A stretch of 64,000 bases of DNA from a virus (lineage: Duplodnaviria > Heunggongvirae > Uroviricota > Caudoviricetes), in IMG/VR virus record IMGVR_UViG_3300037067_004979, positions 10,733-74,732 of that record. One strand, given 5' to 3'. The position numbers were made by a program, and so were the translations under genes. This document shows positions 7,301 through 46,631 of this stretch, piece by piece. Below the pieces are notes generated by a model. The model was not told the origin of the DNA. It saw only the letters and a list, made by a program, of their open reading frames with translations, and did not search any database. The first letter of the stretch is position 1, and each line of letters starts with the position of its first letter.

Positions 7301-7360
7301 GATGGATATATAGTACCAGCAAAGGGTATCTGGGAAGATATAACGATAAAGCATGGTTAA
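4340..7360 (+). CDS. polyvalent virion protein with C-terminal ADP-ribosyltransferase domain
   Basis: 1006 aa; KVYLKPGEHSPEGTREYQGKRGGRYYL module (nt 4616-4696); HEAT-like repeats (EVRSLAMSRISDPDLI, YVRRVIADRLMDKD); C-terminal LWRGSS ... SISSWT ... FEAEILL = R / S-x-S / E-x-E ART triad. Confidence 0.65.
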   Translation: MNDILSRIDGFLVKAKKHGVSYAEYVNNTSIKSGHDKFNEYTPSTQSKIIKNPAEILDYDLEIGVIDQDDYDNIMAYLKSINSEQAPQPQGQKVYLKPGEHSPEGTREYQGKRGGRYYLATGKTGSTGAEQYDIDADLDRQIREDPVFSDMVKTGGVGESIYRDIVGYLKLDNNQLLETYHLRGDSDISNKILNEIITRRIANGDLSLKIDKTYLIDSRHGLIGYIWSAPKNIKIDFIKSNIDTDNVNIGRVILDILEDNINLPGRDNLYLDLAHGLGSKNLTIMENILHHISSDHISDKIFIRSKYPEVRSLAMSRISDPDLIRRMLNNELGMSLKSPYILERGLSRGDKDLVTSPRYLEACAADDRVSLGRLLNRSGDPLTIPDIYGVYKSVPSGTFISIIWGLNSEEGILDLMRYNDPVLNNLIFNNRNFDNQFISQIIDSDDIDKTSDMWRNILYDTDSEDIISGKLDDPDIQTSRIALSRLIDLGGVNRFGNDNWVLTAYNHTNEDNLDYVISKKSPKLSNLLFDEIFISDKFSVVDKDDVLDYFSRYIPDDAFAEKIVGYMDINSAKVESIFYDFPGPDLALRLRDTENDELRRKIALYLREEDINESYMFDSNLYVRRVIADRLMDKDKIHQMIINTPYDSSNNEGSLYNRMMDKLLWKASSEDKIHKFDELLSNFARDERTYILTSILADAEYDVLSHVINNINNIPDTHLRDIMTNCSADDIIRLSKMERIPKDKILTTRLKNIENLGGVTAINKFRETGEIDTNAMRKDFLDKIRRVDGINIQAEEIHDDDEPVGLDEFLHHHRIHAGLRQGWLSSSNSSKSALLKEAARRLFGGHVFYHDNAIASDKKWDDEVTQYSKDNNIDIGEVESYVRDLYQMTQQLLSIRFPGKEEFTLWRGSSEDEIAEKTGEQDEFYLTPIKIRQNSISSWTLKKNVAASFGNTIFEIKVPKNEIIASYLMYSYSGFEAEILLHGSENRDGYIVPAKGIWEDITIKHG

Positions 7361-14676: not shown

Positions 14677-14720
14677 ATGTCCTGCCGGAAATCCCCTGGA
14701 GTCTAAAAAGATTCTGGGGG
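14677..14720 (+). terminator. rho-independent terminator
   Basis: GGAAATCCCC...GGGGATTTTTATT hairpin + T-run after protease gene. Confidence 0.6.
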
Positions 14721-14730
14721 ATTTTTATTG

Positions 14731-16368: not shown

Positions 16369-16621
16369 TGATATTAGGTGTCCCTGTGGTTATGATGTGC
16401 ATGGTATCTCTAGGTATGATCTTCACCCAAAATATGTAGATGATACATTACGATGTGATGAGTCTTGCCCCGATTCAAAGGATCATTTGTATGCATGCTG
16501 TTATCTATGTGATAGCAGAGATAAATGCAGTGTATTTACAGCTACCTTTGGTGGTCTTGAGGGTATAATAAGAGAAAAAAAGATCCGAGATCATCTGAAG
16601 GAACACTATGGTAAGTCCTGA
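16355..16621 (+). CDS. Cys-rich small protein (CC-x-L-C subfamily), tandem paralog
   Basis: MSICDDIRCPCGY...CCYLCDSRDKC; same N-terminus MSIC(E/D)DI as previous. Confidence 0.5.
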   Translation: MSICDDIRCPCGYDVHGISRYDLHPKYVDDTLRCDESCPDSKDHLYACCYLCDSRDKCSVFTATFGGLEGIIREKKIRDHLKEHYGKS

Positions 16622-16694
16622 GTATAGCTCAGTCTGGTAGAGCACTTGGCCTGGGACCAAGGGGTCGTTGGTTCGAATCCAACTACTCAGACCA
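16618..16694 (+). tRNA. tRNA-Pro (anticodon UGG), CCA encoded
   Basis: Cloverleaf read by hand: acceptor CTGAGTA/TACTCAG, D-arm GCTC-AGTCTGGTA-GAGC, anticodon arm CTTGG-CCTGGGA-CCAAG, T-arm GTTGG-TTCGAAT-CCAAC, ACCA 3' end. Confidence 0.75.
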
Positions 16695-26041: not shown

Positions 26042-26686
26042 ATGTCAAAGAAAAACAAGGTCACTCATGCAGGGGGCATGACAGTAGAGCGAGTTGACAA
26101 TCTCCAGGAAATTCTGCCTGAGGTAGAGAAGTCAACAGCAAACTCTGTAGAACATACAGAGACAGACACCAAGCAAATGTATGATAGCTTTTTCGAGAAG
26201 CTCATACAGAAACTTGGCATTAAGCCTTCATGGGCCGGCACGCGTCATCTCAGGATATTCAATTCTGAGAAAGGCAGCAATTACTTCGTGGTTGTTTTCC
26301 ATCCAAAGACAGGACTGGTTGGCTGCGAGTTCTGGATGAGAGGAAAGAGGTCATTCACAGAAGAGATGCTGGAGAGGCTGCCCAGTCTCGGTCTAAATGA
26401 GGAAGTTGTACCAAAATACAACAACGGGAAGGATGCACACATCCAGGTCAGCATGGAAACAAAAAATGCCACCCCTGAATGGGCATCAAAGACATTGAAA
26501 AAAATGATGGACATCATCAACCCGCTTCTCAAAGTTGAAGAGACCACAGCGCCGGCGGCAACAGAAGAGAAAAAATCACATAAAGGCAAGGCCAGGAAGG
26601 TAGCTGAGGTGACCACTCCGACTGAGGAACACCTTGATGTTGAGGTTACTGATCAGGGTGCGGGGGAACCCCTTCTGATTAAATAG
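26042..26686 (+). CDS. hypothetical protein (compositionally GC-richer gene)
   Basis: RBS AAGGAGGAATT; 214 aa; visibly higher GC (e.g. GGGCCGGCACGCGTC, CAGCGCCGGCGGCAAC). Confidence 0.5.
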   Translation: MSKKNKVTHAGGMTVERVDNLQEILPEVEKSTANSVEHTETDTKQMYDSFFEKLIQKLGIKPSWAGTRHLRIFNSEKGSNYFVVVFHPKTGLVGCEFWMRGKRSFTEEMLERLPSLGLNEEVVPKYNNGKDAHIQVSMETKNATPEWASKTLKKMMDIINPLLKVEETTAPAATEEKKSHKGKARKVAEVTTPTEEHLDVEVTDQGAGEPLLIK

Positions 26687-27069: not shown

Positions 27070-28290
27070 TATTAAAAACTAGTCATATATGAACATCATA
27101 TTATATGAAGCTAATCATCCATCAATATAGACTCCAATCCAAATCAAATACGCAATATAAATGATGCCACAATAGCCAAGAGACACACACAAATACAAAA
27201 CCAATATAAACCTATATCAATAAAATGTGGGGCAAAAGAAAGATAGAACAAATGTATTAAACCTAGATACATGACAATATGATCAAATAAGAAGAGTACG
27301 ATTGAGACAGAATCAAACCAATTCAAAGCCAATTCAAAGTTGCTACCTCATCTCTCTGCCAACAGGTTCATATAAGACTATTTTTATCCAGGCGGACGGA
27401 GAAAGTACACTTTAGAACAAATGTATTATAATATTACCAGGTAGCAAATCGTATCCAAAACACGATCAATTATACAACAAATTTGCGCTCAGAATGACCA
27501 AGAATGATGCCGAAGTCATTTATTAATGATAGTATATTGATAAACACTTGTTCTATTAATCTTGAGCAAACGGGGCATTAAAAAGAACAAATACGTATGG
27601 ATGACTAGAACACTTGTATTATTCATATATGACTGTTTCTGAGACATCTTTATTGTAAAGCTGGAATTGGAATCAAATTCTATTCACGCCGTCAATGATA
27701 TAATATCAACAAATATGACTTTGTATTTGGTTAGAGAGTTCATTTATGACCATCAAAAGTTACTCAATTTGATCGTAATATTGCCAATTCCTAATTCAAG
27801 TATGTTTCTTTGACGCCACGAAGCTCAAGGATGATGCCGAGACAAGTTATGCGCTAGATTCTATTGGTGGATGAAATATATACTTATTTGCGCTCCAGAA
27901 GACCCTGATTAATAGCACAATTGTGTTGTCATATATGACTATTTGATCGTATCCTTATGTAAAGAAGCACACTTGTACTAGTTTGTTATAGAACAAATGG
28001 GCTAATTAGAACAGATGTGCTGTGTATCATTATGTAATGTAATTAACTAACTATCATATATGACATACATAATAACAAATATGGTTGGTTAATTAATACA
28101 TATATGACTATCTCTATGATATATGCTATATGACCATCATATATGACTGTCTTCCATGATTGTCTCATAACCCCCCATTATGTCAAATGCTTACTATATG
28201 ATATTCATATGTGACTATTGACCTGCAAGTCAGGGACTTACTTGAAAATTTTTTGACCTGAATTTATATCTGGGAACAATATATGATATC
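27070..28290. repeat. 1.2-kb non-coding divergent region with iterated motifs (TCATATATGACT x>=8; ACACTTGTA; AGAACAAATG)
   Basis: No ORF >62 aa; copies at ~27084, 27624, 27942, 28055, 28103, 28130, 28139, 28205; candidate origin/regulatory hub. Confidence 0.55.
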
Positions 28291-28544
28291 TATTGATGGT
28301 ACTCCTGTCGACTGTATTTTAGATATCTATGATACTTCTTGATGAATATTATGTGTGACAGTGGTTCAACACCCTCTAGTTTACCATCACATTTCTTTAT
28401 ATTTTTACATAGCATACAACACTTACACATATTTCTGTTGTGTATTTCCCAGACCACACAGCTAACAATACCATTCTCCATTCTATACCTACCATACATA
28501 CACCCCACTGATAGACAGTCTCTTGGATCGATTGGATTATTCAC
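28290..28544 (-). CDS. Cys-rich small protein (CC-M-L-C subfamily)
   Basis: CLSVGCMYG...CKCCMLCKNIKKC. Confidence 0.5.
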   Translation of the reverse strand: MNNPIDPRDCLSVGCMYGRYRMENGIVSCVVWEIHNRNMCKCCMLCKNIKKCDGKLEGVEPLSHIIFIKKYHRYLKYSRQEYHQ

Positions 28545-28557
28545 TGTGATCTACTCA

Positions 28558-28818
28558 TCATGTTAATTTAGATCTACTGTATCTTCTATACTTGAGATAT
28601 TTTTGGGAGAACATTAGACGTGCTAGGGGTTCTACCATTGCTAGGATGTTATGTTCTCTATCACATTCCCCTATATTCCTACATATCAGACAGCACTTGC
28701 ATTGATCTTTTTCACTTGTATTCCATATCTCACAGCTAAAAATACTGTTATTCTTTCTTGTTTTTCCATACTTGCATCCAACTGAGATGCAATCATCTAT
28801 ACTAATTGGGCTCTTCAT
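28558..28818 (-). CDS. Cys-rich small protein, tandem paralog
   Basis: CISVGCKYG...CKCCLICRNIGEC. Confidence 0.5.
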   Translation of the reverse strand: MKSPISIDDCISVGCKYGKTRKNNSIFSCEIWNTSEKDQCKCCLICRNIGECDREHNILAMVEPLARLMFSQKYLKYRRYSRSKLT

Positions 28819-29098
28819 CTCTAACCCCCAGATATTTTTGTCTAAAGACTAGTAGCATCAGTGGATCAACATCACTCATTTTCCCAACAACATTCCTGTG
28901 CCAGTTGCATGTGTCATCACACAGCAAACAGCACCCAGTTATACTGTTCATTCTATTAGAAATAGTGGGGGGATAGACTTTAAATCCATCACCTCTTCTA
29001 CAAACCTTTCCACAGTCATGTAAAGTTTTCATACTTGGTATTAACTCACTGTGTGGGCATCTGAGAGATTCACAGTCCTCTCTTCTTATAAATCTCAT
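28802..29098 (-). CDS. Cys-rich small protein
   Basis: CESLRCPHS...CGKVC...CCLLCDDTC. Confidence 0.45.
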   Translation of the reverse strand: MRFIRREDCESLRCPHSELIPSMKTLHDCGKVCRRGDGFKVYPPTISNRMNSITGCCLLCDDTCNWHRNVVGKMSDVDPLMLLVFRQKYLGVRDEEPN

Positions 29099-29439
29099 CT
29101 CATGTTCTCAAGTATTATTATTTTTTTAAACTCATCAAATGATATATTAACTACTTCTTCCATACTCATCCTTGTTACTCTTATTAATATATGATATATC
29201 ACATTTATCTCATCCCTAAATATCCTAGCTAATTTATCATGACAATGCAAGTGCATTTGATATGGCCATGATGACATAAAATAATCTGATTTACGTATAT
29301 GCACCGGATTATTACAGTAAATACATATTTGATCATATGATAGTGGTTGAACACGAGCGGACATCTTTTGAGATATCAGATATTTCTTTATCTGTATGAA
29401 GTCATTGATATCAATCACTCTAACCCCCCATATTTCCAA
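29095..29439 (-). CDS. hypothetical protein
   Basis: 114 aa; C-term IIILENMR. Confidence 0.4.
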   Translation of the reverse strand: MEIWGVRVIDINDFIQIKKYLISQKMSARVQPLSYDQICIYCNNPVHIRKSDYFMSSWPYQMHLHCHDKLARIFRDEINVIYHILIRVTRMSMEEVVNISFDEFKKIIILENMR

Positions 29440-29671
29440 TCATCAAGACCCTTCTATAATCGGGATCTGTTGGTAGTATTCCTTTATTTCTATAGTCACC
29501 AATTGCTGATATAAAACTAAAGATCTCATTATTGTGCTTATGAAAACACTTTTTGCAGCTGTAGAAGACTCTATCATGATGACAGTCTCTACCACAGATA
29601 AGGCACCTGCGGAGAGGTACAGCCCTGGTAGTATGCTGCTGATATATACCTAGTAATATCTCAAATTTCAT
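29420..29671 (-). CDS. small zinc-ribbon protein (MML tail)
   Basis: CLICGRDCHHDRVFYSCKKCFHKH; C-term RRVLMIGNMGG. Confidence 0.5.
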   Translation of the reverse strand: MKFEILLGIYQQHTTRAVPLRRCLICGRDCHHDRVFYSCKKCFHKHNNEIFSFISAIGDYRNKGILPTDPDYRRVLMIGNMGG

Positions 29672-29882
29672 TACTGCCTCATCCTTAAAAGCATTATCAG
29701 TCTTTTTACAGTATCTTCATTATTTTCTGTTATCTTTAAATTAACCTGAAAACATACTTGTCTTTTATTAACATAAAGACACTCATAACAGCAAACATAA
29801 TCATTGCATAACTACTGTCCACCAAAACAGTCCTCTCTGAATGAACAATTAAGCTTATCACACAATTCATTTCTCATTGTTT

Positions 29883-29957
29883 TGGTACCCCCGGCAGGAG
29901 TTGAACCTGCATTCTCTGTTTAGAAGACAGATGCTCTATCCACTGAGCTACGGAGGC
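29883..29957 (-). tRNA. tRNA-Arg (anticodon UCU), CCA encoded
   Basis: Reverse complement GCCTCCG-TA-GCTC-AGTGGATA-GAGC-A-TCTGT-CTTCTAA-ACAGA-GAAT-GCAGG-TTCAACT-CCTGC-CGGGGGT-A-CCA. Confidence 0.8.
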
Positions 29958-29962
29958 ACACA

Positions 29963-30214
29963 CTATCTTGACTCCAACTTTCCGAGCATTATTACTCTTC
30001 TGTATGTCTCATCATTTGGCAGTATTTGATATGAGTAATATAGATCGATTGCTGAGATAAACTTCCTTGCCTCATTACCATGAATAGCCCAACAGTCATT
30101 ACACATAAATATTGTTTGATCATCCCTACAGTATTTACCACAGACTGGGCAATCTTCTATTATCCCATAATAGTAGCATCTTCTATATATGTGTTGCAGT
30201 ATTGAGATATCCAT
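29963..30214 (-). CDS. small zinc-ribbon protein (MML tail)
   Basis: CPVCGKYCRDDQTIFMCNDCW; C-term RRVIMLGKLESR; close paralog of 29420. Confidence 0.5.
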   Translation of the reverse strand: MDISILQHIYRRCYYYGIIEDCPVCGKYCRDDQTIFMCNDCWAIHGNEARKFISAIDLYYSYQILPNDETYRRVIMLGKLESR

Positions 30215-30221
30215 GTATTTA

Positions 30222-30584
30222 CTAGATCCTCTTTCTGACAGGCCTTGTCTCCCTTACTGTTTTAGAGACCACCTTATTGGTTTCCTTAAATAAACCGGAT
30301 TGATAAAATCTGATTTCCTCACCACAAAATGGGCAGAATTTAATTTTCCTGGTTGAGGATTCATCATCAAAATAGGCATGACCAAGATATATCTCAATGA
30401 TTGGCTTGGGGTCTTCCATGGTGTCATAATAGGCACCAAAAGATACATGATGATCTGAATAGGCTTCCTCTAATTCATCACAGCAAAACTCCCTGGTCTT
30501 ATACTCTTCTAGGTAGGGTAGTTCCCTCTTGGATTTCCCTCCATCCATAACCTCTCTGATAACTCTATTGTATTCAAAAATCAT
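30222..30584 (-). CDS. hypothetical protein with C-terminal zinc ribbon
   Basis: CPFCGEE; RBS GAGGTGA; preceded by conserved promoter motif. Confidence 0.5.
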   Translation of the reverse strand: MIFEYNRVIREVMDGGKSKRELPYLEEYKTREFCCDELEEAYSDHHVSFGAYYDTMEDPKPIIEIYLGHAYFDDESSTRKIKFCPFCGEEIRFYQSGLFKETNKVVSKTVRETRPVRKRI

Positions 30585-30602
30585 ATATCACCTCATGTTA
30601 TT

Positions 30603-30619
30603 ATTATATCAAAAACATC
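30603..30619 (-). promoter_or_regulatory. conserved promoter motif (minus strand) GATGTTTTTGATATAAT
   Basis: Reverse complement of + strand attatatcaaaaacatc; followed by GAGGTGA RBS and ATG of 30584. Confidence 0.5.
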
Positions 30620-30855
30620 TATTCACTTTTTCTCAGTTGGTTGAGCATGGCTAGCTGTATTAGTTCACTCTCAGATAAATTTTGTAGAGTGGTGCACTCT
30701 TCCAGTACATGATAATTATTTTTTATGACAAGCATGAATTTTCTCCAGCAATCATCACAGGCAAATACTCTTGGCATCTTAATACCACAGTATGGGCACT
30801 CAGTGTGATTAATGGGGCTTTTGCTAAGCATTTCACTTATTATTTCCCTGTACAT
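30619..30855 (-). CDS. small zinc-ribbon protein (MML tail)
   Basis: CPYCGIKMPRVFACDDCW; C-term LAMLNQLRKSE. Confidence 0.45.
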   Translation of the reverse strand: MYREIISEMLSKSPINHTECPYCGIKMPRVFACDDCWRKFMLVIKNNYHVLEECTTLQNLSESELIQLAMLNQLRKSE

Positions 30856-30878
30856 CAGCTATCTTAATCCATCTTTAC

Positions 30879-31130
30879 TCATTGTGTAAAGTTACTTATT
30901 ATTGCTTCCTGTATTGTGTAATAGGTTGGATTACCCTTTTCCAATTTTATTTGACTATCATAAGAATCAAGATGATATGTATGAGCTGATTCATACCTTA
31001 CGAAGGCTCTCTCAAGCCAGATTATTCTCCCATCATTTAAGTTGTGTGGGAGAAAACAAAACACCGTATAACCAACTTGTAATCTCATTACCTTTTTGTT
31101 TATATCTTCTTTACATTTACCAATTATCAT
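30879..31130 (-). CDS. hypothetical small protein
   Basis: 83 aa. Confidence 0.4.
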   Translation of the reverse strand: MIIGKCKEDINKKVMRLQVGYTVFCFLPHNLNDGRIIWLERAFVRYESAHTYHLDSYDSQIKLEKGNPTYYTIQEAIISNFTQ

Positions 31131-31402
31131 TTTAATATCCCTATCTTTATAAACATCTTAATTTTCTGTATGAGTGATTGTGATTTACCTTCATATTGAC
31201 TTTTCTTGCACACTATAAAAAACATAAATTTTGTGTCTTTATCAACCTCTCCGGAAAAAAAACAGTAATCTGTGTCATTATCTATGTGACATTTAACACA
31301 ACAGATATACTTTTTACTTTGTCCACATAAGTGAGTTCGACAATGTAACATATTTTTTTGTGGACAAATAATTTGACATTGTTTTTCTGTGGGTACAAAC
31401 AT
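31127..31402 (-). CDS. Cys-rich small protein
   Basis: CQIICPQ...CRTHLCG...CCVKCH. Confidence 0.45.
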   Translation of the reverse strand: MFVPTEKQCQIICPQKNMLHCRTHLCGQSKKYICCVKCHIDNDTDYCFFSGEVDKDTKFMFFIVCKKSQYEGKSQSLIQKIKMFIKIGILK

Positions 31403-31428
31403 ATTATATAACCTCTAGTTAATATGAG

Positions 31429-31515
31429 TGGCGGAGTCGGTGAGATTTGAACTCACGATGCTGTTAGCATGACCGCTTTCAAGACGGCTCCGATAAACCA
31501 CTCCGGCACGACTCC
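31429..31515 (-). tRNA. tRNA-Ser (anticodon UGA), type II, CCA encoded
   Basis: Reverse complement GGAGTCG...GCCGT-CTTGAAA-GCGGT, long variable arm CATGCTAACAGCATC, T-arm GTGAG-TTCAAAT-CTCAC, CGACTCC-G-CCA. Confidence 0.75.
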
Positions 31516-31590
31516 TGGTAGGGAGTGCAAGATTCAAACTTGCGTCTCCGAGATATAAGCTCGGTATCCTAATCACTGAACTAACTCCCC
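31516..31590 (-). tRNA. candidate tRNA-Ile (anticodon UAU), CCA encoded; weak D-stem
   Basis: Reverse complement GGGGAGT..CCGAG-CTTATAT-CTCGG..GCAAG-TTTGAAT-CTTGC-ACTCCCT-A-CCA; anticodon loop has U33 and A37; D-stem has 2 G-U pairs. Confidence 0.55.
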
Positions 31591-31598
31591 CCATCAAG

Positions 31599-32387
31599 CT
31601 AGTCTGTTGGTAATACAATAGGCATGCCCTGTGGTACAACAACAATCTTTGCATCAGGAGCAAGCTTATTAATGTATAGATACTGTAGATACTCCCTTGT
31701 CAATGTTGATTGTAATACCTTGATGGCCTCTGCCTGTCCCTTGGCCTGAGCAACAGCCTGTTCTGCCTCTACTCTTATTTGGAGTAACTTATTTTCGGCC
31801 TTTAAGACATCCTGTGCAGCAGCTACCTTTGATTCAATTGCAGCAGAGAATTCCTTGGAAAAGGCAAAATCAGTAAGACTGACAGTCTCAACAACTATGT
31901 GTCTTAGTGCTAGACGCTCAGTTATAGCCTTTGCAATATCATCCTTAACCTGGGCTCTCTTGGTAATCATCTCCTCTGCAGGATACTTTGCAGTGATTTC
32001 CTTTAGTGTTTCCTGAATCATGTTGTGCCCAACTGTATTCATATAACTAACACCCAGTTGATTGTAGACATCAATGGCATAGTTCTTATCAAGATGATAG
32101 TTTATCTTTATGGTAGTTTTTACTTCCTGAAGGTCCCTGGTACCAGCAGATGATTCTGGTTCCTCATATAGCTGTGTTTGAAGTGATATGAGCTGTAAGC
32201 CCTCAAACAATGGCATCTTAACGGAGTATCCAGCCTCTCTCACACCAACAGCCTTACCACCCTGAAGAACAATATTTAGGTGTCCTGCAGGTGTGGTTAT
32301 GATACCACCAACAAGGGTAACAATGAGTAATATAACTATTACCACTGCCCCAAAAATGATTAAACCGACCTTAGTATCTTCGTCCAT
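31599..32387 (-). CDS. SPFH/band-7 (prohibitin/HflK/C-like) membrane protein
   Basis: N-terminal TM helix; SPFH core ...IVLQGGKAVGVREAGYSVKMPLFEGLQLISLQTQ...; C-terminal coiled coil AEQAVAQAKGQAEAIKVLQ; GC-richer. Confidence 0.7.
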   Translation of the reverse strand: MDEDTKVGLIIFGAVVIVILLIVTLVGGIITTPAGHLNIVLQGGKAVGVREAGYSVKMPLFEGLQLISLQTQLYEEPESSAGTRDLQEVKTTIKINYHLDKNYAIDVYNQLGVSYMNTVGHNMIQETLKEITAKYPAEEMITKRAQVKDDIAKAITERLALRHIVVETVSLTDFAFSKEFSAAIESKVAAAQDVLKAENKLLQIRVEAEQAVAQAKGQAEAIKVLQSTLTREYLQYLYINKLAPDAKIVVVPQGMPIVLPTD

Positions 32388-32557
32388 TTTTCTTTTCTCC
32401 TATTTATTTTATTTGTTGCTAGTTCTGGTTAGAGACTTGTTGTATGTATGAAAATAACACCTCCTGAAATTTTTTACAGTAATTAATCAATTCAGCCACA
32501 TATAAAAAATTTTACAAAACATAAAAAATATGATACAATAAATTCTGTCCTTCCAAC

Positions 32558-32821
32558 CTAATATAATCTATTTAACATTATTGTCTTCTTTATTTTTCTA
32601 TTAGATATACCCTCTCTACATAATCTAATTATCTCATACCTTTCACTCTGAAATTCACTAGATAAATCCAAGTATATACCAACACAATCATTACACAAGA
32701 TAAAAGCTCTTTCTCTTGATACTTTACACAGACAAAAACAGCAAACACTCCTATCAGAAGTTGGTGATGAATAATTAGTCATTGACCTAATCATATTAAT
32801 ATATTTATCTATACTACTCAT
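32558..32821 (-). CDS. small zinc-ribbon protein (MML tail)
   Basis: CCFCLCKVSRERAFILCNDCV; C-term KKTIMLNRLY. Confidence 0.5.
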   Translation of the reverse strand: MSSIDKYINMIRSMTNYSSPTSDRSVCCFCLCKVSRERAFILCNDCVGIYLDLSSEFQSERYEIIRLCREGISNRKIKKTIMLNRLY

Positions 32822-33086
32822 TATTTAGCCTATGCAGCATACATTTCTTTACTATATCATCAATACTATATCTTTCTAGTAGACCCTCAATACTAGTAGT
32901 ACCAGGAAATAACACAATATTAAGATCTCTTAGATATTTATTTCTGCAACTACCGCAGACAGGGTATCTTGTTAATACAAAACTATTATTCTTCTCACAC
33001 AGTATACAAACATCAGGTGGATCTATCTCTCTATTTGTGGCAAAGAAATCTTTTATCTTTTCTAGAACTTCTCTAAAAGACATCAC
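32814..33086 (-). CDS. small zinc-ribbon protein (MML tail)
   Basis: CILCEKNN...CGSCRNKY; C-term VKKCMLHRLNNE. Confidence 0.5.
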   Translation of the reverse strand: MMSFREVLEKIKDFFATNREIDPPDVCILCEKNNSFVLTRYPVCGSCRNKYLRDLNIVLFPGTTSIEGLLERYSIDDIVKKCMLHRLNNE

Positions 33087-39633: not shown

Positions 39634-41679
39634 TTGAAACTCATTTGGCATAGTACCGCAAATTTTGTGGGGACTGGTTATGGTGTAATAACCAGAGACC
39701 TTGTGCATAGAATAAAGAGTCTTGGTCATGATGTAGATATCTACACAAAGCACTTTCTAGGTGGAAACATAGTTGTTGAGGGTGTTAATAACTATGATGG
39801 TACTCAGATGGATGTAATTAATCATAAACTTGAGAGTGAGGGGTACGACTACATTATTACCTTTGGGGATGCTTGGGTGTATCCAGATAGAGTAAATTAC
39901 TACTTTACAAAAAACAAGTGGGTGTCATCTATGTTTTTGGATGTGCAATTTATGCATCCAAGAATGGTAGAGGCCATGAATCAGTGTCAATACCAGTTAA
40001 CTCTTACAAAGCACGGTAAGAGTGAGTTGGAGAGATCTGGATTTAAGCCACTCTATGCACCACTTGGTGTTGACATGAAGAAATTTAGGCCAGATGAGGA
40101 GCTACGTAATTCATTTAGGAAGAAGTATGGTTGGGAGGATAAATTTGTTTATGGTTTTTTAGGTATCAACTATGGTACAGATAGAAAAAATATCATAAAT
40201 CTAATAAAGGCCTTCCAGGCAATAAACAAGAAGCATCCAGAAACAATCCTATACTTGCATACATCTTTGAATGGTGCACCAACAAGTGGTTTACCAATAG
40301 ACTGGATACTTCAATCATGTGGATTTCCAGTAGATAATACTGGTCCAGTTAGGTTTTGTAACCAGGATGACTACAGGACCTGGGTTATATCTCAAGATGA
40401 ACTTGTTGGTCTCTATAATGCATTTGATGTATTTGCATTCCCAACACAGGGTGAGGGATTTGGTATGCCAATTGTTGAGGCTCAGGCTTGTGGTTGTCCG
40501 ATCATAACAACTGATACCACAAGTGGTGGGGAGCTATTTAAGAGTGGTTGGTTAATTCCAATTGATGATGATGATTATGAGTTCTCCACACATAAGTCAT
40601 GGTTTGCCAAGGTTAGATTAAATAAGATTTATGAATATATGGAGAAATCCTATAATGATGTTAAAGCTGATACTGATAATATTCTAAGAAAAAATGCAAG
40701 AAATAATATACTTGAGTATGATATAGATACAGTATTTAATAAGTATTGGGTACCAATGCTAAACTTCCTTGAAGAGGCCAAGAAAACCCCTGTTAAGTTA
40801 CCAAACTGGACAAAGGAGATATATAGTGTTTGTGGTGGTAGAATATATCCTGACGCAGGGGATTGTGGGGCCTATCACTCATGTGATAGACAGTGTGATA
40901 AATTAAATCTATTTAGATTTCCATGTGAACCTCTTACAGAGGGTAGAAGTTTAATGATGAGAAGTTATCCATTATTCCCAGATAGAGATATGAAGGACAT
41001 GCTTATAGATTCTAGATGTCCAATGTCTAAGTGGGTAGCTGAGAGATTTACAGATGAGGTAAATGCTGCATGGGATAGAGTTATTGAGTACCCATCTCTA
41101 AGAAGATTCTATAAGGATAAGTGTGATGAGGGATTCTTTGATAACTTTGTTACCTCTAAATTGAAAGATAGAAACCTTAATTTTGATTCTGAGTATTCAA
41201 GGATCTTTTCTCTGCCATGGACAACCATATTTCAGGTAAGTGAAGAGGTTATAAATTTCTTTAGTGATTGCAAGCAGGTTCTTGATATTGGTTCTGGGGA
41301 AGGCAAGATAGTTAGAGCTCTTAATGATAGAGGAATAAATACAAAGGGTCTTGAGATAAACAGGGATAGAGTTGATAATAATCTAATTCTTTATGGTAAT
41401 GTTACAGATATACCATATGGGGATAAGACAATAGATGGCATAATTTGTATTGATACACTAGAGCATATCAGTGATCCTATCAAGGCCTTAAGAGAGATAT
41501 TTAGGGTAGCTAGAAAACGTGTTTTAATACAGGTTACATCTCTTAATTCGTGGGCTTTCAGAGAGGATCCTACACACGTTGTAAAGTGGCAGGATTACAG
41601 ATGGTGGAGAGAGATAGCTGAATTTGGTAGGATTATCAAGAAGGACGGCCAGAGGTTCTATGTGGAGGTAGTAGACTAA
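39634..41679 (+). CDS. GT4 glycosyltransferase fused to C-terminal class I SAM methyltransferase
   Basis: TTG start after AAGGAGGT; EGFGMPIVEAQACGCPIITTD (GT4 E-x7-E); Cys-rich middle; VLDIGSGEGKIV...D methyltransferase motif I. Confidence 0.65.
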   Translation: MKLIWHSTANFVGTGYGVITRDLVHRIKSLGHDVDIYTKHFLGGNIVVEGVNNYDGTQMDVINHKLESEGYDYIITFGDAWVYPDRVNYYFTKNKWVSSMFLDVQFMHPRMVEAMNQCQYQLTLTKHGKSELERSGFKPLYAPLGVDMKKFRPDEELRNSFRKKYGWEDKFVYGFLGINYGTDRKNIINLIKAFQAINKKHPETILYLHTSLNGAPTSGLPIDWILQSCGFPVDNTGPVRFCNQDDYRTWVISQDELVGLYNAFDVFAFPTQGEGFGMPIVEAQACGCPIITTDTTSGGELFKSGWLIPIDDDDYEFSTHKSWFAKVRLNKIYEYMEKSYNDVKADTDNILRKNARNNILEYDIDTVFNKYWVPMLNFLEEAKKTPVKLPNWTKEIYSVCGGRIYPDAGDCGAYHSCDRQCDKLNLFRFPCEPLTEGRSLMMRSYPLFPDRDMKDMLIDSRCPMSKWVAERFTDEVNAAWDRVIEYPSLRRFYKDKCDEGFFDNFVTSKLKDRNLNFDSEYSRIFSLPWTTIFQVSEEVINFFSDCKQVLDIGSGEGKIVRALNDRGINTKGLEINRDRVDNNLILYGNVTDIPYGDKTIDGIICIDTLEHISDPIKALREIFRVARKRVLIQVTSLNSWAFREDPTHVVKWQDYRWWREIAEFGRIIKKDGQRFYVEVVD

Positions 41680-42806
41680 TGAAGATAATGTGGTCTTTTA
41701 TATCTCCATTAACACCATTTGGGTATGGTGTTGTTAGTAAGAACATGGTTCCAAGAATGATGGCAGATGGGCATGAGGTCATTGTTTGTGCATCACAGTA
41801 TGTTGGTCATCCAATGCAATATAATGGCATGAATATGATTTCCTTTCTTGATTGGCATGTGGTTAGGAATCTGTGTGATCACTTTGGTGTGGATTATATC
41901 TTTGATCTGTATAACTATAAGTTACCAGAGCAGCCACACTATAGAGACTGGGTAATGTGTGCAGCAATGGATTTTCCCTTTATGTATGATAGATATGCTG
42001 GACACATAAATGAGTTGGCTTCTCATGTGATAGCACCATCTAAACATAACATTAAGGAAATAAAGAGATTTGGGTTTAATCCTACATATGCTCCCTGGGG
42101 AGTTGATACAAAGTTATATAGACAGGATATGGATGCCAGAAAGAGAAAGAGAGATTCACTAAAGATAGATGATGATGTATTCATTGTTGGTACTGTGGGG
42201 GCAAACATATTTGATGATAGAAAAAATCTATTCAATACAATAAGAGCATTTAATAAGTTAGCCTCAGTTCATCCGGATGTGGCTCTATATATACACTGTT
42301 ATTTACATTCATCTTTACCATTGCTTAGATTTATTCAAACCAGTGGTTTTTCAGATAGAATTTACTATCCAGATCAGAGAAAGATAGAGCTGATGTCTAT
42401 ACAGGATGAGGAGATGGTAGATACATATAATGCAATGGATGTATTTGTCTGTGCTTCAAAGGGTGAGTCCTTTTGTTTACCTCTTGTTGAGGCACAATCC
42501 TGTGGTGTACCAGCCATAGTGACTGATACAACTGCCTTACCAGAGATGCTATATGGTGGATGGAAAATACCAGTTGATGAGGACGACTATGAATGGGCAT
42601 ACTTTGGTGGATGGTGGCCTAAGGTAAGGGCACAAAGTATATATGAACAGATGGAAATAGCTTATCAGGAGTGGAAAACTGGGACCATACAGTGTGAATC
42701 AGAAAGAGCTGAGCAGATCAGAACAGAGTTTGATTGGGATGTTGTCTATGATAAGCATTGGAAGCCTCTTTTAAAGGATCTGGAGAGTAAAAAATGCACC
42801 TTATAG
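41679..42806 (+). CDS. GT4 glycosyltransferase
   Basis: GESFCLPLVEAQSCGVPAIVTD; paralog of N-domain of previous. Confidence 0.65.
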   Translation: MKIMWSFISPLTPFGYGVVSKNMVPRMMADGHEVIVCASQYVGHPMQYNGMNMISFLDWHVVRNLCDHFGVDYIFDLYNYKLPEQPHYRDWVMCAAMDFPFMYDRYAGHINELASHVIAPSKHNIKEIKRFGFNPTYAPWGVDTKLYRQDMDARKRKRDSLKIDDDVFIVGTVGANIFDDRKNLFNTIRAFNKLASVHPDVALYIHCYLHSSLPLLRFIQTSGFSDRIYYPDQRKIELMSIQDEEMVDTYNAMDVFVCASKGESFCLPLVEAQSCGVPAIVTDTTALPEMLYGGWKIPVDEDDYEWAYFGGWWPKVRAQSIYEQMEIAYQEWKTGTIQCESERAEQIRTEFDWDVVYDKHWKPLLKDLESKKCTL

Positions 42807-43588
42807 TATTCCCAACTTTTAGATGTGGATTAAACTGTCCTTACTGTAGTTATATACATGATGGTGATAAATTGATCTTTCGTGGTTCTGGCATGGAGTT
42901 CGATCAGAATAGTATAATTAGTGCCAGTGAATGGATAGATATTTTCAATCAACAAAGAGCAGATATAATTGAATTTTCAGGGGGAGGTGAGCCATATAAA
43001 CATCCAGAGATACTTTCCATATTATCAGGGGTTCCTAGTAAATGGGCAATCACATCAAACACTCTTAATTCAAAAATTAATGAAACAGATTTATCTAAGT
43101 GTTGTTTATGGACTGCTAGTTTTCATCCACAGGTGTCAGACAAGGCAAAAATAACATTTTTTAATAATATACACTTTATAGCATCAAAAGTACCAACTTC
43201 TGTTACTCTAGTAGCAACACCACAAAGAATACAAGAGACTCTCCAGTGGGCTAATAGAATTCATAATATGGGTTTTAGAGTAAATATACATCCCTACTAT
43301 GATGATAGGGAGTTTAGTTGGTATGATTATCCAAACGAACTAGCCTTTCTTAAAAGATCAAAATTTGTGGTTTATGATGAAATGATGTTTAAATATAGTG
43401 GATATAAGAGTCCTAGATTATGTGGGGCTGGTAACAATTATAAGATGTACGGACCAGATGGAAAATCATACAGATGTATGTCTGATTTGATGTTTAAAAG
43501 GGATTCAACAGAAGCTGTTTTTTGTGATAATTTTTGTCCTTTCCCTTGTGATTGGAGTCAAGTGATTAAAGATGATAGAAACATTTAG
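42794..43588 (+). CDS. radical SAM enzyme with Cys-rich C-terminal region
   Basis: FRCGLNCPYCSY (CxxxCxxC), SGGGEP motif; C-terminal C...C...C-x3-C-x3-C. Confidence 0.65.
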   Translation: MHLIVFPTFRCGLNCPYCSYIHDGDKLIFRGSGMEFDQNSIISASEWIDIFNQQRADIIEFSGGGEPYKHPEILSILSGVPSKWAITSNTLNSKINETDLSKCCLWTASFHPQVSDKAKITFFNNIHFIASKVPTSVTLVATPQRIQETLQWANRIHNMGFRVNIHPYYDDREFSWYDYPNELAFLKRSKFVVYDEMMFKYSGYKSPRLCGAGNNYKMYGPDGKSYRCMSDLMFKRDSTEAVFCDNFCPFPCDWSQVIKDDRNI

Positions 43589-44270
43589 ATTTAGAGGTAA
43601 GTCAAATAGTGGTGTTTTCTTTTTTAAGGGTAAACCCTATCAATATTACAATCATACATATAATGCTGTTGGTTTAAATGAAAGAACTATAGAAATACCA
43701 ATAATTAATGGCTACTTTGAGAAATACAGAGGAAAAGATGTATTGGAAATAGGACACACTCTTGGACACTATCTAACTAAATATGATCATGATATAGTTG
43801 ATAAGTGTGAAGAAGCTCCTGGGGTAACCAATGTTGATATAGTAGATTTTGAGCCCACTAAAAAATACGATTTAATATTTTCTATATCTACTATGGAGCA
43901 TGTTGGTAATGATGAGGCTTTTGAGGAAAGCCCAGATAAAGATAAGGTTAAAGTGGCCTTTGATAGGTGTGTATCTTGGTTAAAGCCAGATGGAGCATTT
44001 ATCTGTACTTTCCCACTAGGGTTTAACTATCACCTTGATACTAGAGTTATGAATGGTGAAATAAAGTTTGATGAGTTGTATTGTTTTGGTAGGGAGAGTT
44101 CTACTATCAATCATTGGATATTTACCTCCTTTGAAACAGCTTATAAATCAGATCTTAAGGTAATGAGGACTTCTATTAAAGATATAAATGGTGTTTTACA
44201 GCCATTTACAATATGTTTCTTTGTAGCTATAGGTATAATTTATGGAGGAAATAATGACAGAGAAGAATAA
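43572..44270 (+). CDS. putative SAM-dependent methyltransferase-fold protein
   Basis: DVLEIGHTLGHY, DLIFSISTMEHV, LKPDGAFI resemble MTase motifs I-III; tentative. Confidence 0.4.
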   Translation: MIETFRFRGKSNSGVFFFKGKPYQYYNHTYNAVGLNERTIEIPIINGYFEKYRGKDVLEIGHTLGHYLTKYDHDIVDKCEEAPGVTNVDIVDFEPTKKYDLIFSISTMEHVGNDEAFEESPDKDKVKVAFDRCVSWLKPDGAFICTFPLGFNYHLDTRVMNGEIKFDELYCFGRESSTINHWIFTSFETAYKSDLKVMRTSIKDINGVLQPFTICFFVAIGIIYGGNNDREE

Positions 44271-44913
44271 ACATATTCCATGGAATAGAGGTCTTACTAA
44301 GTATTCAGACAACAGAATTATGAAAGTTTCTATTGAAATGTCCGGGAAAATTAGATCAAAGGAACACAGTTTAAATATTTCTCTATCTAAAATTGGTGTA
44401 AAAAATATAAAAAAATCTATACAAATGAAAGATAATTCTAGTGGTTCTAAGAATTTATTCTATGGTCATCATCATACACAAGAAACTAAAAACAAGATTA
44501 GTATTGCAAATAAAGGTAGAAGATACCCAGGCAGAAAATTACCCTCTCTTATGGGAAATAATAACCCATCTAAACGTCCGGAAGTAAGATTATTGATAAG
44601 TAAGAGAGTTAGTGAAACTCATTGGAATACTTCCTTAGAGAAAAATCCTAACTGGAGAGGAGGTATATCTTTTTTACCTTATAAACCTTATAGACATCTA
44701 AAAAATCAAATTATTCATAGAGATAAATCTGATAGATGTCTTTTATGCGGAGAGGACACTAAGGTCCGTGTTATTCATCATATAGATTATATTAAGGTAA
44801 ATAATAATTTAAATAATCTATGTATATTATGTAATAGTTGTAATTCTAAAGTTAATAAAAATAGGTCTTATTGGGAAAACTATTTTGTTGGGAGGATTAA
44901 AGATGGAGTATAA
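44242..44913 (+). CDS. HNH homing endonuclease (AP2-like IPWNRGLTK)
   Basis: IPWNRGLTKYSD; CLLCGED...HHIDY...N...CNSCN HNH motif; AT-rich insertion in glycan cluster. Confidence 0.6.
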   Translation: MEEIMTEKNKHIPWNRGLTKYSDNRIMKVSIEMSGKIRSKEHSLNISLSKIGVKNIKKSIQMKDNSSGSKNLFYGHHHTQETKNKISIANKGRRYPGRKLPSLMGNNNPSKRPEVRLLISKRVSETHWNTSLEKNPNWRGGISFLPYKPYRHLKNQIIHRDKSDRCLLCGEDTKVRVIHHIDYIKVNNNLNNLCILCNSCNSKVNKNRSYWENYFVGRIKDGV

Positions 44914-45910
44914 ATTTACTTCAGAAGTACAAATGAACTATGAACACAGTAAGAAAAAATTAATTTCTTGTATATCTGGGGTTAATGGACAAGATGGTTC
45001 GTTTTTGGCTGAAATATTGTTAGAAAAAGGGTACGAAGTACATGGGATACTGCGTAGAAGTAGTGTTTCTAATACAAAAAATATAGATCATATAAAGAAT
45101 AATATATACTTACATGTGGGTGATGTAAATGATTCTAATTTTATTAATACTATACTCTATGATATACAACCAAATGAGTTTTATCATTTAGCTGCTCAGA
45201 GTCATGTCGGGTTAAGCTTTGATATCCCCATTTATACAGCTGAAACTGTTGCTATAGGTACATTAAATGTTCTCGAATCTGTAAGAAAATATTCCCCATT
45301 CACTAAAATATATTATGCGGGGACTTCTGAGTTATATGGCTCAGCTAAACCTCCTCAGAATGAAAATACTTTAATGCATCCCAATAGTCCATATTCTATA
45401 TCAAAGTTATTTGGTTTTGAGATGTCTAGATTATATAGAAAATCATATAATTTATTTATATCATGTGGCATACTTTTCAACCACGAATCTGAACGCAGAG
45501 GTGATGAATTTGTAACACAAAAAATTGTTAAGGGGTTGATAAACTGTAAATTAGGCAAACAAAAAAAGTTATACTTGGGCAATCTAGATGCTAAGAGAGA
45601 TTGGGGTTATGCAAGAGATTACTGTGAAGCTATGTGGATGATGCTTCAGCATGGAGAAGCAGATGATTTTGTTATAGGGACTGGAGAATCTTATTCAATA
45701 AGAGATTTTTTAAATGTTACTGGAGACTATGTTAAGATAGATTGGAAGGACTATGTTGAAATTGATTCTAATTTATTCAGACCCACTGAAACTGAGTACC
45801 TATTGGCAGCTCCCGGTAAGGCCTTCAGTAAGTTGGGTTGGAGACCTAAGGTTAGATTTGAACAATTGGTAAGAATTATGGTTGATGCACAGATAAATTT
45901 GGAGGTATAA
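44903..45910 (+). CDS. gmd: GDP-mannose 4,6-dehydratase
   Basis: ISGVNGQDGSFLAEILLEKGYEVHGILRRSS (Rossmann GxxGxxG), YSISK, catalytic region; start moved to ATG 44903 after GGAGGATTAAAG. Confidence 0.75.
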   Translation: MEYKFTSEVQMNYEHSKKKLISCISGVNGQDGSFLAEILLEKGYEVHGILRRSSVSNTKNIDHIKNNIYLHVGDVNDSNFINTILYDIQPNEFYHLAAQSHVGLSFDIPIYTAETVAIGTLNVLESVRKYSPFTKIYYAGTSELYGSAKPPQNENTLMHPNSPYSISKLFGFEMSRLYRKSYNLFISCGILFNHESERRGDEFVTQKIVKGLINCKLGKQKKLYLGNLDAKRDWGYARDYCEAMWMMLQHGEADDFVIGTGESYSIRDFLNVTGDYVKIDWKDYVEIDSNLFRPTETEYLLAAPGKAFSKLGWRPKVRFEQLVRIMVDAQINLEV

Positions 45911-45911
45911 T

Positions 45912-46631
45912 ATGCCAGGTTTTGGTTGGGTTAAGGATAAATTTGATATCAGAGATTTTAATGTCAGGAGTTTAATTACTCCAGAGAAAAAGCAAGCTCT
46001 GCTACCAAATCACTTCGTTGTCTATGATGGTACAATCATATATGATCAGGGTCAGACATCAAAGTGTGTTGCATACTCTGCTAGTGGTGTTAAGACAGAT
46101 CAGGAATTTATACAGTATGGTAAGCAATATCGATTTGATGCAAACTGGCTCTATTCTGAGTGTAAGAAGATAGATGGCATACCAAATGAAAATGGCACGT
46201 ATCCCAGAATAGCCTGTAAAATACTTCAGGAAAAGGGTGATAAACTAGATACATCAAATCTGTGCTTTCTTAAGAAAATGGTATCTGGTCCAGATAAAAA
46301 GTGGGGCATAGATTCCTACTATAGGATAGATATATCAAATACAGATGAGGACATCAAGCAAATTCTGTTTTCCTATGGTAGTTTTATAGCTGCATCATCA
46401 TGGTATAGCAATTGGATGGATAAGTTTACTGAGTTTCCAGAACCAAATGGCATTGTTGATGGTGGCCATGCCTATCGAATAATTGGCTGGAATGAAAAGG
46501 GCTGGATAATTGCTAACTCATGGGGTACCATTCTATGGGGTGACGGTGGTAAGGCAACAATGTCATATGATATTTTTAGAAGAAGGGTATTGTCTGAAGG
46601 CGACTGCTGGAAGCTAGTCGATTCAAAATAA
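45912..46631 (+). CDS. papain-like (C1 family) cysteine peptidase
   Basis: QGQTSKCVAYSA (Gln...Cys), GGHAYRIIGW (His), NSWG (Asn-Ser-Trp). Confidence 0.6.
   Translation: MPGFGWVKDKFDIRDFNVRSLITPEKKQALLPNHFVVYDGTIIYDQGQTSKCVAYSASGVKTDQEFIQYGKQYRFDANWLYSECKKIDGIPNENGTYPRIACKILQEKGDKLDTSNLCFLKKMVSGPDKKWGIDSYYRIDISNTDEDIKQILFSYGSFIAASSWYSNWMDKFTEFPEPNGIVDGGHAYRIIGWNEKGWIIANSWGTILWGDGGKATMSYDIFRRRVLSEGDCWKLVDSK

What the first reader, a model, noticed from the sequence alone, without database searches (positions are those of the whole stretch)
29883..31590. tRNA set includes a candidate genomically encoded tRNA-Ile(UAU)
Four tRNAs were read by hand: Pro-UGG (+, 16618-16694), Arg-UCU, Ser-UGA (type II) and a 75-nt gene whose anticodon loop is CTTATAT (UAU). 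The last three lie tail-to-head on the minus strand, and all four encode CCA. AGA, ATA and TCA are heavily used codons here, so the set looks tuned to the phage's own codon bias. A UAU anticodon would read AUA without the lysidine pathway and is uncommon. The D-stem of this one is weak, so it needs confirmation.
Basis: seen in the sequence. Interest (0 to 1): 0.55.

Follow-up and report, generated by a model that had tools for sequence, protein, structure and literature searches.

The report
Phage tRNA-Ile with UAU anticodon
The phage really does carry four tRNA genes, one of them an isoleucine tRNA with a UAU anticodon that should read the phage's very common AUA codon without the usual bacterial lysidine modification; it is a sound but fairly ordinary example of a kind also present in many other viral genomes.

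Summary
Observation confirmed. All four encode CCA.

The Ile-UAU gene is not a decayed copy.
- Its minimum-energy fold is the cloverleaf.
- Orthologues occur in related uncultivated phages (capsid protein 63-74% identical, 25-28 tRNAs each). 13 of 22 pairs show compensatory changes.
- The "weak" D-stem (U12.G23) is invariant.
- The G19:C56 elbow pair is replaced by A19:U56.

ATA is 50% of Ile codons (42 per 1000) and AGA 64% of Arg. The AGA bias goes with extreme CpG depletion (observed/expected 0.19).

Most likely function: codon supply, as in the T4 tRNA cluster, but with a lysidine-independent AUA reader. T4's Ile gene has CAT.

"Uncommon" holds for cellular bacteria, not for viruses. One capped IMG/VR scan gave 109 ARAGORN-confirmed tRNA-Ile(TAT) genes. 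The cultured Synechococcus phage S-CREM1 also has one.

The host is unknown. Charging by IleRS, the state of U34 and discrimination between AUA and AUG are inferred, not shown.

Verdict: new member of a known kind, modest interest.

The parts
31516..31590 (-). tRNA-Ile(UAU), 75 nt with encoded CCA. Anticodon at 31557-31555. A37, U38, discriminator A73, G1.U72, 4-nt variable loop. D-loop G18-A19 is paired with T-loop U56.
   Evidence: ARAGORN. Rfam 62.0 bits, E 5e-11. Cloverleaf is the minimum-energy fold. Covariation with orthologues. A19:U56.
31429..31515 (-). tRNA-Ser(UGA), type II, 87 nt, CCA encoded. Starts at the base immediately after the CCA of tRNA-Ile.
   Evidence: ARAGORN. Rfam 52.4 bits. 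Sequence.
29883..29957 (-). tRNA-Arg(UCU), 75 nt, CCA encoded. Same strand as Ile and Ser, 1.47 kb downstream of Ser.
   Evidence: ARAGORN. Rfam 70.4 bits.
16618..16694 (+). tRNA-Pro(UGG), 77 nt, CCA encoded. 88% identical to the Pro(UGG) of the related 100-kb phage contig.
   Evidence: ARAGORN. Rfam 66.3 bits. Identity.
31599..32387 (-). Band_7 / SPFH (HflC-like) gene. Its stop codon lies 8 nt upstream of tRNA-Ile, so it is probably on the same transcript (context).
   Evidence: ORF list. PF01145. PHROG 200.
29963..31402 (-). Five small ORFs between tRNA-Ser and tRNA-Arg. Two of them belong to a CxxC...CxxC zinc-ribbon paralogue family (context). Relatives have a continuous tRNA array upstream of their capsid gene instead.
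   Evidence: ORF list. Alignment A3. No Pfam hit above cut-off. Relatives' arrays.

Best explanation
These are four functional phage tRNA genes that top up the supply of decoders for codons the phage uses heavily and its host probably uses rarely: AUA, AGA/AGG, CCA and UCA.

Proposed steps:
- The Ile-Ser pair is transcribed from the minus strand, probably together with the upstream Band_7 gene.
- RNase P cleavage at the 5' end of Ser leaves the encoded CCA end of Ile ready for charging.
- Host IleRS charges the UAU tRNA.
- U34 pairs with the A of AUA, so AUA is read as Ile with no need for TilS and lysidine.

Shown here: the genes, their folds, their conservation with covariation, and the codon usage. 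Inferred: transcription and processing, aminoacylation by IleRS, the modification state of U34, discrimination against AUG, and the mismatch with the host.

This phage appears to keep a small subset of the 25-28-tRNA array seen in its relatives.
For: Detection and fold:
- Both tRNA finders accept all four genes. The cloverleaf is the minimum-energy fold.

Conservation:
- A tRNA-Ile(UAU) with the same D-arm, the same anticodon loop (CUUAUAU) and the same A19:U56 pair occurs in related phage contigs. Their capsid protein is 63-74% identical.
- Across 5 distinct sequences, 99% of cells pair and 13 of 22 pairs carry changes on both sides. 0 of 500 shuffles reach this, and slid controls give 1-3 pairs.
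- In 15 of the 16 tRNAs of these arrays that have U56, it goes with G18-A19; the other has A18-A19. This shows selection on the three-dimensional fold.
- Ile(UAU) next to Ser(UGA) is shared with the 100-kb relative. Pro(UGG) is 88% identical to that relative's.

Relatives' arrays:
- Each has Ile(GAU), Ile(UAU) and exactly one CAU tRNA. The L002/L030-type array covers all 20 amino acids only if that CAU tRNA is Met. If so, UAU is the family's AUA reader.

Codon usage:
- ATA is 50% of Ile and rises to 56% in the structural half. AGA is 64% of Arg and CCA 56% of Pro.
- CpG observed/expected is 0.19, which explains the avoidance of CGN and the reliance on AGR.
- Against a sample of the only host clade hinted at (Anaerolineae), ATA and AGA show the two largest excesses of all 61 codons: 42 vs 5 and 34 vs 5 per 1000.

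Precedent:
- T4 carries Arg(UCU), Ser(UGA), Pro(UGG) and an AUA-reading Ile.
- Unmodified U34 tRNA-Ile reads AUA in M. mobile and in B. subtilis lacking tilS (PMC3575796, PMC3919564).
Against: - The host is unknown. The Chloroflexota hint rests on one gene at 55-57% identity. The phage's 36% GC and CpG o/e of 0.19 differ from those genomes, which have 47-48% GC and CpG 0.77-0.92.
- E. coli-type IleRS (Trp905) charges a UAU anticodon about 360-fold worse than LAU. On E. coli ribosomes a UAU tRNA also binds AUG (PMC3575796). Function therefore depends on host properties that could not be checked.
- E. coli Ile identity pairs, recalled from memory, are not present. The tRNA has G4-C69, U12.G23 and G29-C41, and U38 where E. 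coli has A38.
- The capsid gene, presumably the most expressed, uses ATA and AGA less than the genome average: 43% and 36%.
- No promoter or terminator signal above chance was found around the tRNAs.
- About 30 kb of the ~106-kb genome was not seen and could hold more tRNAs.
Confidence: 0.7

Rival explanations
1. The tRNAs are insurance against loss of host tRNAs rather than a codon-usage supplement. They would replace tRNAs that are degraded or cleaved during infection (host shut-off, anticodon nucleases). A UAU Ile tRNA would have the added merit of needing no TilS step. The unusual loops (U38, A19:U56) would then help it escape host enzymes.
For: Relatives carry near-complete sets of 25-28 tRNAs covering all 20 amino acids, more than codon bias alone requires. 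All Ile tRNAs of the family have a pyrimidine at position 38, and many family tRNAs have altered elbow pairs. Published work on a T4-like vibriophage argues that phage tRNAs sustain translation while host RNA is degraded (summarised in PMC13191261).
Against: This phage keeps only four tRNAs in the ~75 kb examined. They are those for the codons with the largest usage (ATA, AGA), as codon supply predicts. I know of no nuclease that targets tRNA-Ile (from memory). No defence or counter-defence gene was identified beside the tRNAs.
Confidence: 0.15
2. The Ile(UAU) gene is a decaying remnant of the ancestral tRNA array, or a CAU or GAU tRNA that picked up a point mutation at position 34. On this reading it no longer works.
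For: Compared with relatives, the array has clearly been cut down and broken up by small ORFs. The D-stem has two G.U pairs, there is a G1.U72 wobble, and C56 is absent.
Against: U34 is present in all five distinct family sequences, which fall into three deeply diverged types. Stems are kept by compensatory changes in 13 of 22 pairs. U56 is matched by A19. CCA is retained. The Rfam score of 62 bits is in the range of the other three tRNAs.
Confidence: 0.05
3. The tRNA is functional but is not a clean Ile/AUA decoder. It might be charged poorly or with another amino acid. It might also read AUG as well as AUA and place Ile at Met codons.
For: On E. coli ribosomes M. mobile tRNA-Ile(UAU) binds both AUA and AUG, and E. 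coli IleRS charges UAU poorly (PMC3575796). The tRNA lacks several E. coli Ile identity pairs (determinants recalled from memory).
Against: In B. subtilis an unmodified U34 tRNA-Ile binds AUG only weakly and supports normal growth (PMC3919564). The tRNA shares its D-arm (GUUCA...) and anticodon-loop pattern (CU-NAU-AY) with the family's tRNA-Ile(GAU), not with its CAU tRNAs. The gene is conserved in phages that use ATA for half of all Ile codons.
Confidence: 0.08

Closest known systems
Phage T4 tRNA cluster (NC_000866, 71173-72530)
   Same: T4 also encodes Arg(UCU), Ser(UGA), Pro(UGG) and an AUA-reading tRNA-Ile. They sit on one strand, and a protein gene (segB) separates Arg from the rest. 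They are classically explained as supplying A-ending codons that the host uses rarely.
   Different: T4's Ile gene has anticodon CAT, so it needs host TilS and lysidine. Here the gene encodes TAT. T4 has eight tRNAs, while four were found here. There is no sequence relationship.
Mycoplasma mobile tRNA-Ile2(UAU) (Taniguchi et al. 2013, PMC3575796)
   Same: A genomically encoded UAU anticodon with A37 that reads AUA without lysidine.
   Different: It is a cellular tRNA in an organism that lost tilS. That organism's IleRS (Arg865) and ribosome have co-adapted. Here the tRNA is phage-borne, and the host's tilS, IleRS and ribosome are unknown.
Bacillus subtilis suppressor tRNA1-Ile with G34 changed to U34 (Kohrer et al. 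2014, PMC3919564)
   Same: A GAU-type Ile tRNA body carrying U34. U34 is unmodified, binding to AUA is strong and binding to AUG weak. The window tRNA likewise resembles the family's GAU tRNAs in its D-arm and anticodon loop.
   Different: It is a laboratory suppressor, not a conserved natural gene.
tRNA-Ile(TAT) genes of other viruses: Synechococcus phage S-CREM1 (OP535465.1), a Latilactobacillus curvatus prophage, and at least 109 IMG/VR contigs
   Same: The same anticodon in viral genomes. It often stands alone (32 of 109) or within small tRNA groups (PMC10688831).
   Different: All of these have the canonical G18-G19 / U54-U55-C56 elbow, which the search pattern required. The window's family has A19:U56. 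No sequence similarity was detectable by blastn.

Membership tests
tRNA (Rfam RF00005) | Score above the curated gathering threshold of the covariance model | tested here: met
   62.0 bits against 29, E 5e-11, full-length match 1-71. ARAGORN agrees.
tRNA (Rfam RF00005) | Cloverleaf helices maintained by compensatory substitutions in homologues | tested here: met
   13 of 22 pairs changed on both sides and 99.1% of cells paired. 0 of 500 shuffles reach this.
tRNA (Rfam RF00005) | D-loop/T-loop elbow pair 19:56 | tested here: met
   A19:U56 replaces G19:C56. In 15 of 16 family tRNAs with U56 it goes with G18-A19; the other has A18-A19.
Lysidine-independent AUA decoder, tRNA-Ile(UAU) | T at position 34 of the gene, with A35, U36 and A37 | tested here: met
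   Loop CTTATAT at 31559-31553 on the minus strand.
Lysidine-independent AUA decoder, tRNA-Ile(UAU) | Aminoacylated with isoleucine by IleRS | not testable with these tools
   Only indirect support: discriminator A73, and a D-arm and anticodon loop shared with the family's tRNA-Ile(GAU).
Lysidine-independent AUA decoder, tRNA-Ile(UAU) | Reads AUA and rejects AUG; U34 unmodified or suitably modified | not testable with these tools
   Needs mass spectrometry and ribosome-binding assays. Precedents: PMC3575796, PMC3919564.
tRNA-Ile2(CAU) / TilS-lysidine system | C at position 34 of the gene | tested here: not met
   Position 34 is T. No CAU tRNA in the window.
Phage codon-compensating tRNA set (T4-like) | The tRNAs match codons that are frequent in the phage | tested here: met
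   ATA 50% of Ile, AGA 64% of Arg, CCA 56% of Pro, TCA 28% of Ser.
Phage codon-compensating tRNA set (T4-like) | Those codons are rare in the host, or the cognate host tRNAs are scarce | tested here: inconclusive
   Host unknown. Against two Anaerolineae genome samples, ATA and AGA show the largest excesses. That host guess rests on one gene.

The most novel reading that the evidence does not exclude
Phage-borne tRNA-Ile(UAU) may be a widespread, overlooked way for phages to bypass the host's TilS/lysidine step. In this family it appears to be the only AUA reader in otherwise complete 25-28-tRNA sets, and it has a rewired elbow (A19:U56). At least 75 unrelated sequence clusters of such tRNAs exist in viral metagenomes. 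Reviews nonetheless treat the UAU anticodon as effectively absent from bacteria and their phages. If these tRNAs work in hosts with ordinary Trp-type IleRS, then the published rules for IleRS anticodon recognition and for AUA/AUG discrimination are incomplete.
Probability: 0.25. Interest if true: 0.55.

Novelty: new member of a known kind. Interest (0 to 1): 0.3.

Why it matters
This single gene adds little. Phage tRNA sets tuned to A-ending codons have been known since T4, and UAU-anticodon Ile tRNAs have been described in a few bacteria.

The more useful result is the wider view. The gene is conserved with covariation across a family of ~100-kb uncultivated phages. UAU Ile tRNAs are also numerous and diverse in viral contigs, although reviews describe this anticodon as missing from bacteria and phages (PMC8007984).

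This gives natural test material for two questions raised in PMC3575796: how bacterial IleRS tolerates U34, and how ribosomes avoid reading AUG with a UAU anticodon. For annotation, it warns that ARAGORN can miss these tRNAs, as it did for the orthologue in the 100-kb relative.

Tried and rejected
- Megablast of 29000-33000 against deposited phages found no match. Blastn of the 75-nt tRNA found none either. Blastn of another viral UAU tRNA hit only tRNAs of other types.
- My first IMG/VR pattern had the wrong D-loop gap and found nothing. The corrected pattern worked.
- A scan of 185,579 species genomes for the family-specific Ile(UAU) pattern gave one hit. It lies inside a coding region and is not a tRNA.
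- Contigs carrying homologues of the adjacent Band_7 gene hold no tRNAs. They place that gene in a replication module with DnaB, primase, PolA and RecA. This does show that the family are bacterial viruses.
- Attempts to reach the rest of the ~106-kb genome gave only 8.3 kb upstream and about 2.4 kb downstream. Neither stretch has a tRNA.
- Literature searches for phage tRNA-Ile(UAU) found almost nothing specific. Morgado and Vicente 2019 gives no anticodon counts in its main text.
- Promoter and terminator scans around the tRNAs did not exceed shuffled controls for promoters.
- An archaeal host was considered because of the ATA/AGR-rich, CpG-poor codon usage. It was rejected because of the bacterial-type replication genes in relatives, the Shine-Dalgarno-like sequences and the encoded CCA.

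Full report
**Observation**

ARAGORN on the whole window returns four tRNA genes and no others:
- Pro(tgg) 16618-16694 +
- Arg(tct) 29883-29957 -
- Ser(tga) 31429-31515 -
- Ile(tat) 31516-31590 -

Rfam's tRNA model scores all four above its 29-bit threshold (Arg 70.4, Pro 66.3, Ile 62.0 with E 5e-11, Ser 52.4). A permissive scan adds only three sub-threshold matches that are not tRNAs.

The Ile gene reads GGGGAGU-UA-GUUC-AGUGAUUA-GGAU-A-CCGAG-CUUAUAU-CUCGG-AGAC-GCAAG-UUUGAAU-CUUGC-ACUCCCU-A-CCA. Its minimum-energy fold is the cloverleaf. All four genes encode CCA.

Only Ile and Ser are truly tail-to-head, with no spacer between them. Arg follows 1.47 kb further on, after five small ORFs.

**What the element is**

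The window is a densely coding phage sequence using the standard genetic code (about 92% coding).
- It has an SU10-type major capsid protein (PF17236) and a tail tube protein.
- A portal gene lies just upstream of the window.
- It has no near relative among deposited phages.
- It comes from a metagenome. Identical proteins sit on Logan contigs of run SRR18595300 and on a 106,335-bp JGI contig.
- Relatives have DnaB, DnaG-type primase, PolA and RecA, so this is a virus of bacteria.

**Relatives**

A capsid-based search of IMG/VR found 12 related contigs. Two relatives with 74% and 63% identical capsid proteins carry arrays of 25-28 tRNAs a few kb upstream of the capsid gene. In the window, the minus-strand block with Ile, Ser and Arg lies upstream of the capsid gene.

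Both arrays contain a tRNA-Ile(UAU). In the 100-kb relative ARAGORN missed it. Rfam scores it at 46 bits, and it sits 4 nt upstream of Ser(UGA), the same neighbour as in the window. A family-specific pattern found further copies in JGI metagenomes.

Comparison of the five distinct sequences (three deeply diverged types) shows the following:
- 99% of cells pair, and 13 of 22 pairs have changes on both sides. No shuffle out of 500 reaches this, and slid controls give 1-3 pairs.
So is the loop CUUAUAU.

All copies have G18-A19 in the D-loop and U54-U55-U56 in the T-loop. The near-universal G19:C56 pair is therefore replaced by A19:U56. Across the family's arrays, 15 of the 16 tRNAs with U56 also have G18-A19, in several tRNA types; the other has A18-A19. 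This is a tertiary covariation, and it argues that these are working tRNAs.

The window's Pro(UGG) is 88% identical to that of the 100-kb relative. The simplest history is that this phage keeps a reduced, rearranged remnant of an ancestral array. No more tRNAs lie in the 8.3 kb upstream or about 2.4 kb downstream of the window. About 30 kb of the genome was not seen.

**Codon usage**

Over 19,164 codons:
- ATA is 50% of Ile (42.3 per 1000, third most used codon). It is 56% in the structural half.
- AGA is 64% and AGG 25% of Arg.
- CCA is 56% of Pro.
- TCA is 28% of Ser, second to TCT.

The Arg bias goes with an extreme and uniform CpG shortage. There are 409 CpGs where 2042 are expected, an observed/expected ratio of 0.19, and every NCGN context is depleted. 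Relatives have ratios of 0.41-0.49.

**Host**

The host is unknown. The only hint comes from the phage's GDP-mannose dehydratase. All nine named cellular homologues among its best hits or in their clusters (55-57% identity) are Chloroflexota, mostly Anaerolineae. In 20-kb samples of two such genomes, ATA and AGA are each about 5 per 1000. Of all 61 codons, these two show the largest phage excess.

This fits codon compensation, but the host guess is weak. Those genomes have 47-48% GC and CpG ratios of 0.77-0.92. The capsid gene uses ATA and AGA less, and CGT more, than the phage average. That is what one expects if these codons are costly in the host.

**Mechanism**

The best reading is a T4-like codon-supply set. 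T4's cluster, re-examined here, has Arg(tct), Ser(tga), Pro(tgg) and an annotated tRNA-Ile whose gene anticodon is CAT, plus four others. The window's four tRNAs have the same codon specificities as four of T4's eight. The AUA reader, however, is encoded as TAT and so needs no lysidine.

Published work shows that unmodified U34 Ile tRNAs read AUA in M. mobile and in B. subtilis lacking tilS. It also shows that E. coli IleRS charges a UAU anticodon about 360-fold worse than LAU, and that E. coli ribosomes let such a tRNA bind AUG (PMC3575796, PMC3919564). Charging and fidelity in the unknown host are therefore inferred, not shown.

In the relatives each array has exactly one CAU tRNA. The L002/L030-type array covers all 20 amino acids only if that tRNA is Met. 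This suggests that UAU is the family's sole AUA reader.

**How unusual it is**

For cellular bacteria the UAU anticodon is rare: 9 species lacking tilS in PMC3575796 and 19 species in PMC4013482. A review calls it the one UNN anticodon missing from prokaryotes and says phage tRNAs lack the same genes (PMC8007984).

For viruses this does not hold.
- 109 of the 120 are ARAGORN tRNA-Ile(tat) genes. They comprise 101 unique sequences in 75 clusters below 85% identity.
- 32 of them are the only tRNA in their neighbourhood.
- At least two are giant-virus contigs.
- A narrower pattern had already found 13 others.
- The cultured Synechococcus phage S-CREM1 has an annotated tRNA-Ile that ARAGORN reads as tat.
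- A Latilactobacillus curvatus prophage with one is in the literature (PMC10688831).

**Verdict**

The gene is a conserved, structurally sound tRNA-Ile(UAU) within a small codon-matching tRNA set. It is a new member of a known kind. The points of some interest are the family-wide A19:U56 elbow, the apparent absence of a lysidine-type Ile tRNA in the relatives' full arrays, and the abundance of such tRNAs in viral metagenomes.

Noticed in passing
window 1-64000: Extreme, uniform CpG depletion: 409 CpGs against 2042 expected (o/e 0.19). Every NCGN context is depleted (0.10-0.43), and TpG/CpA are at 1.2. Relatives are at 0.41-0.49. The four tRNA genes (0.5% of the bases) hold 15 of the 409 CpGs. 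This drives the avoidance of CGN, TCG, CCG, ACG and GCG codons. The cause is unknown; possibilities are CpG methylation followed by deamination, or avoidance of a defence system.
   Followed up: partly
window 28290-33086, minus strand: The block around the tRNAs is filled with small Cys-rich ORFs in paralogous families. Five are CxxC...CxxC zinc-ribbon proteins of 78-90 aa (29420-29671, 29963-30214, 30619-30855, 32558-32821, 32814-33086). Three more are 84-98 aa proteins (28290-28544, 28558-28818, 28802-29098). None has a Pfam hit above cut-off. Relatives have a tRNA array upstream of their capsid gene instead.
   Followed up: partly
window 4340-7360 and 7353-8549, + strand: A 1006-aa protein carries a C-terminal DRAT-like ADP-ribosyltransferase domain (E 4e-16). 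The next gene (398 aa) has an anthrax-lethal-factor-like metalloprotease domain. The preceding 875-aa protein has only DUF5661. These may be injected effector proteins; they lie downstream of the portal gene.
   Followed up: no
window 13059-14651, + strand: A 530-aa protein with an intein splicing domain (PF14890, just above cut-off). Its N-terminal part hits prohead-protease-type PHROGs.
   Followed up: no
window 39634-46631, + strand: A sugar-modification cassette sits inside the structural module. It comprises a glycosyltransferase fused to a SAM methyltransferase, a second glycosyltransferase, GDP-mannose 4,6-dehydratase (383 bits) and a papain-like protease. The nearest named cellular dehydratases are all Chloroflexota, a weak host hint.
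   Followed up: partly
L002:663-738 and L008:5531-5605 (relatives' arrays): The single CAU tRNA of each related array has a U1.U72 mismatch at the top of the acceptor stem. This recalls bacterial initiator tRNAs, but the three G-C pairs in the anticodon stem are absent. Whether it is Met, fMet or Ile2 is undecided.
   Followed up: no
L008, L002, L029, L034, L038, L039 (family tRNA arrays): Many family tRNAs have non-canonical but covarying elbow contacts. Examples: A19:U56 in Lys(CUU), Gln, Cys and some Ile(GAU); U19:A56 in one Arg(UCU); and an A18-G19 D-loop with a U54-G55-C56 T-loop in the L008 CAU tRNA, Trp and one Arg(UCU). ARAGORN missed several members that Rfam found.
   Followed up: partly
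window 14678-14728 and 26333-26394, + strand: Sub-threshold Rfam matches to NsiR1 (30 bits against 39, E 0.05) and skipping-rope RNA (26 bits against 37, E 0.09). Probably chance.
   Followed up: no
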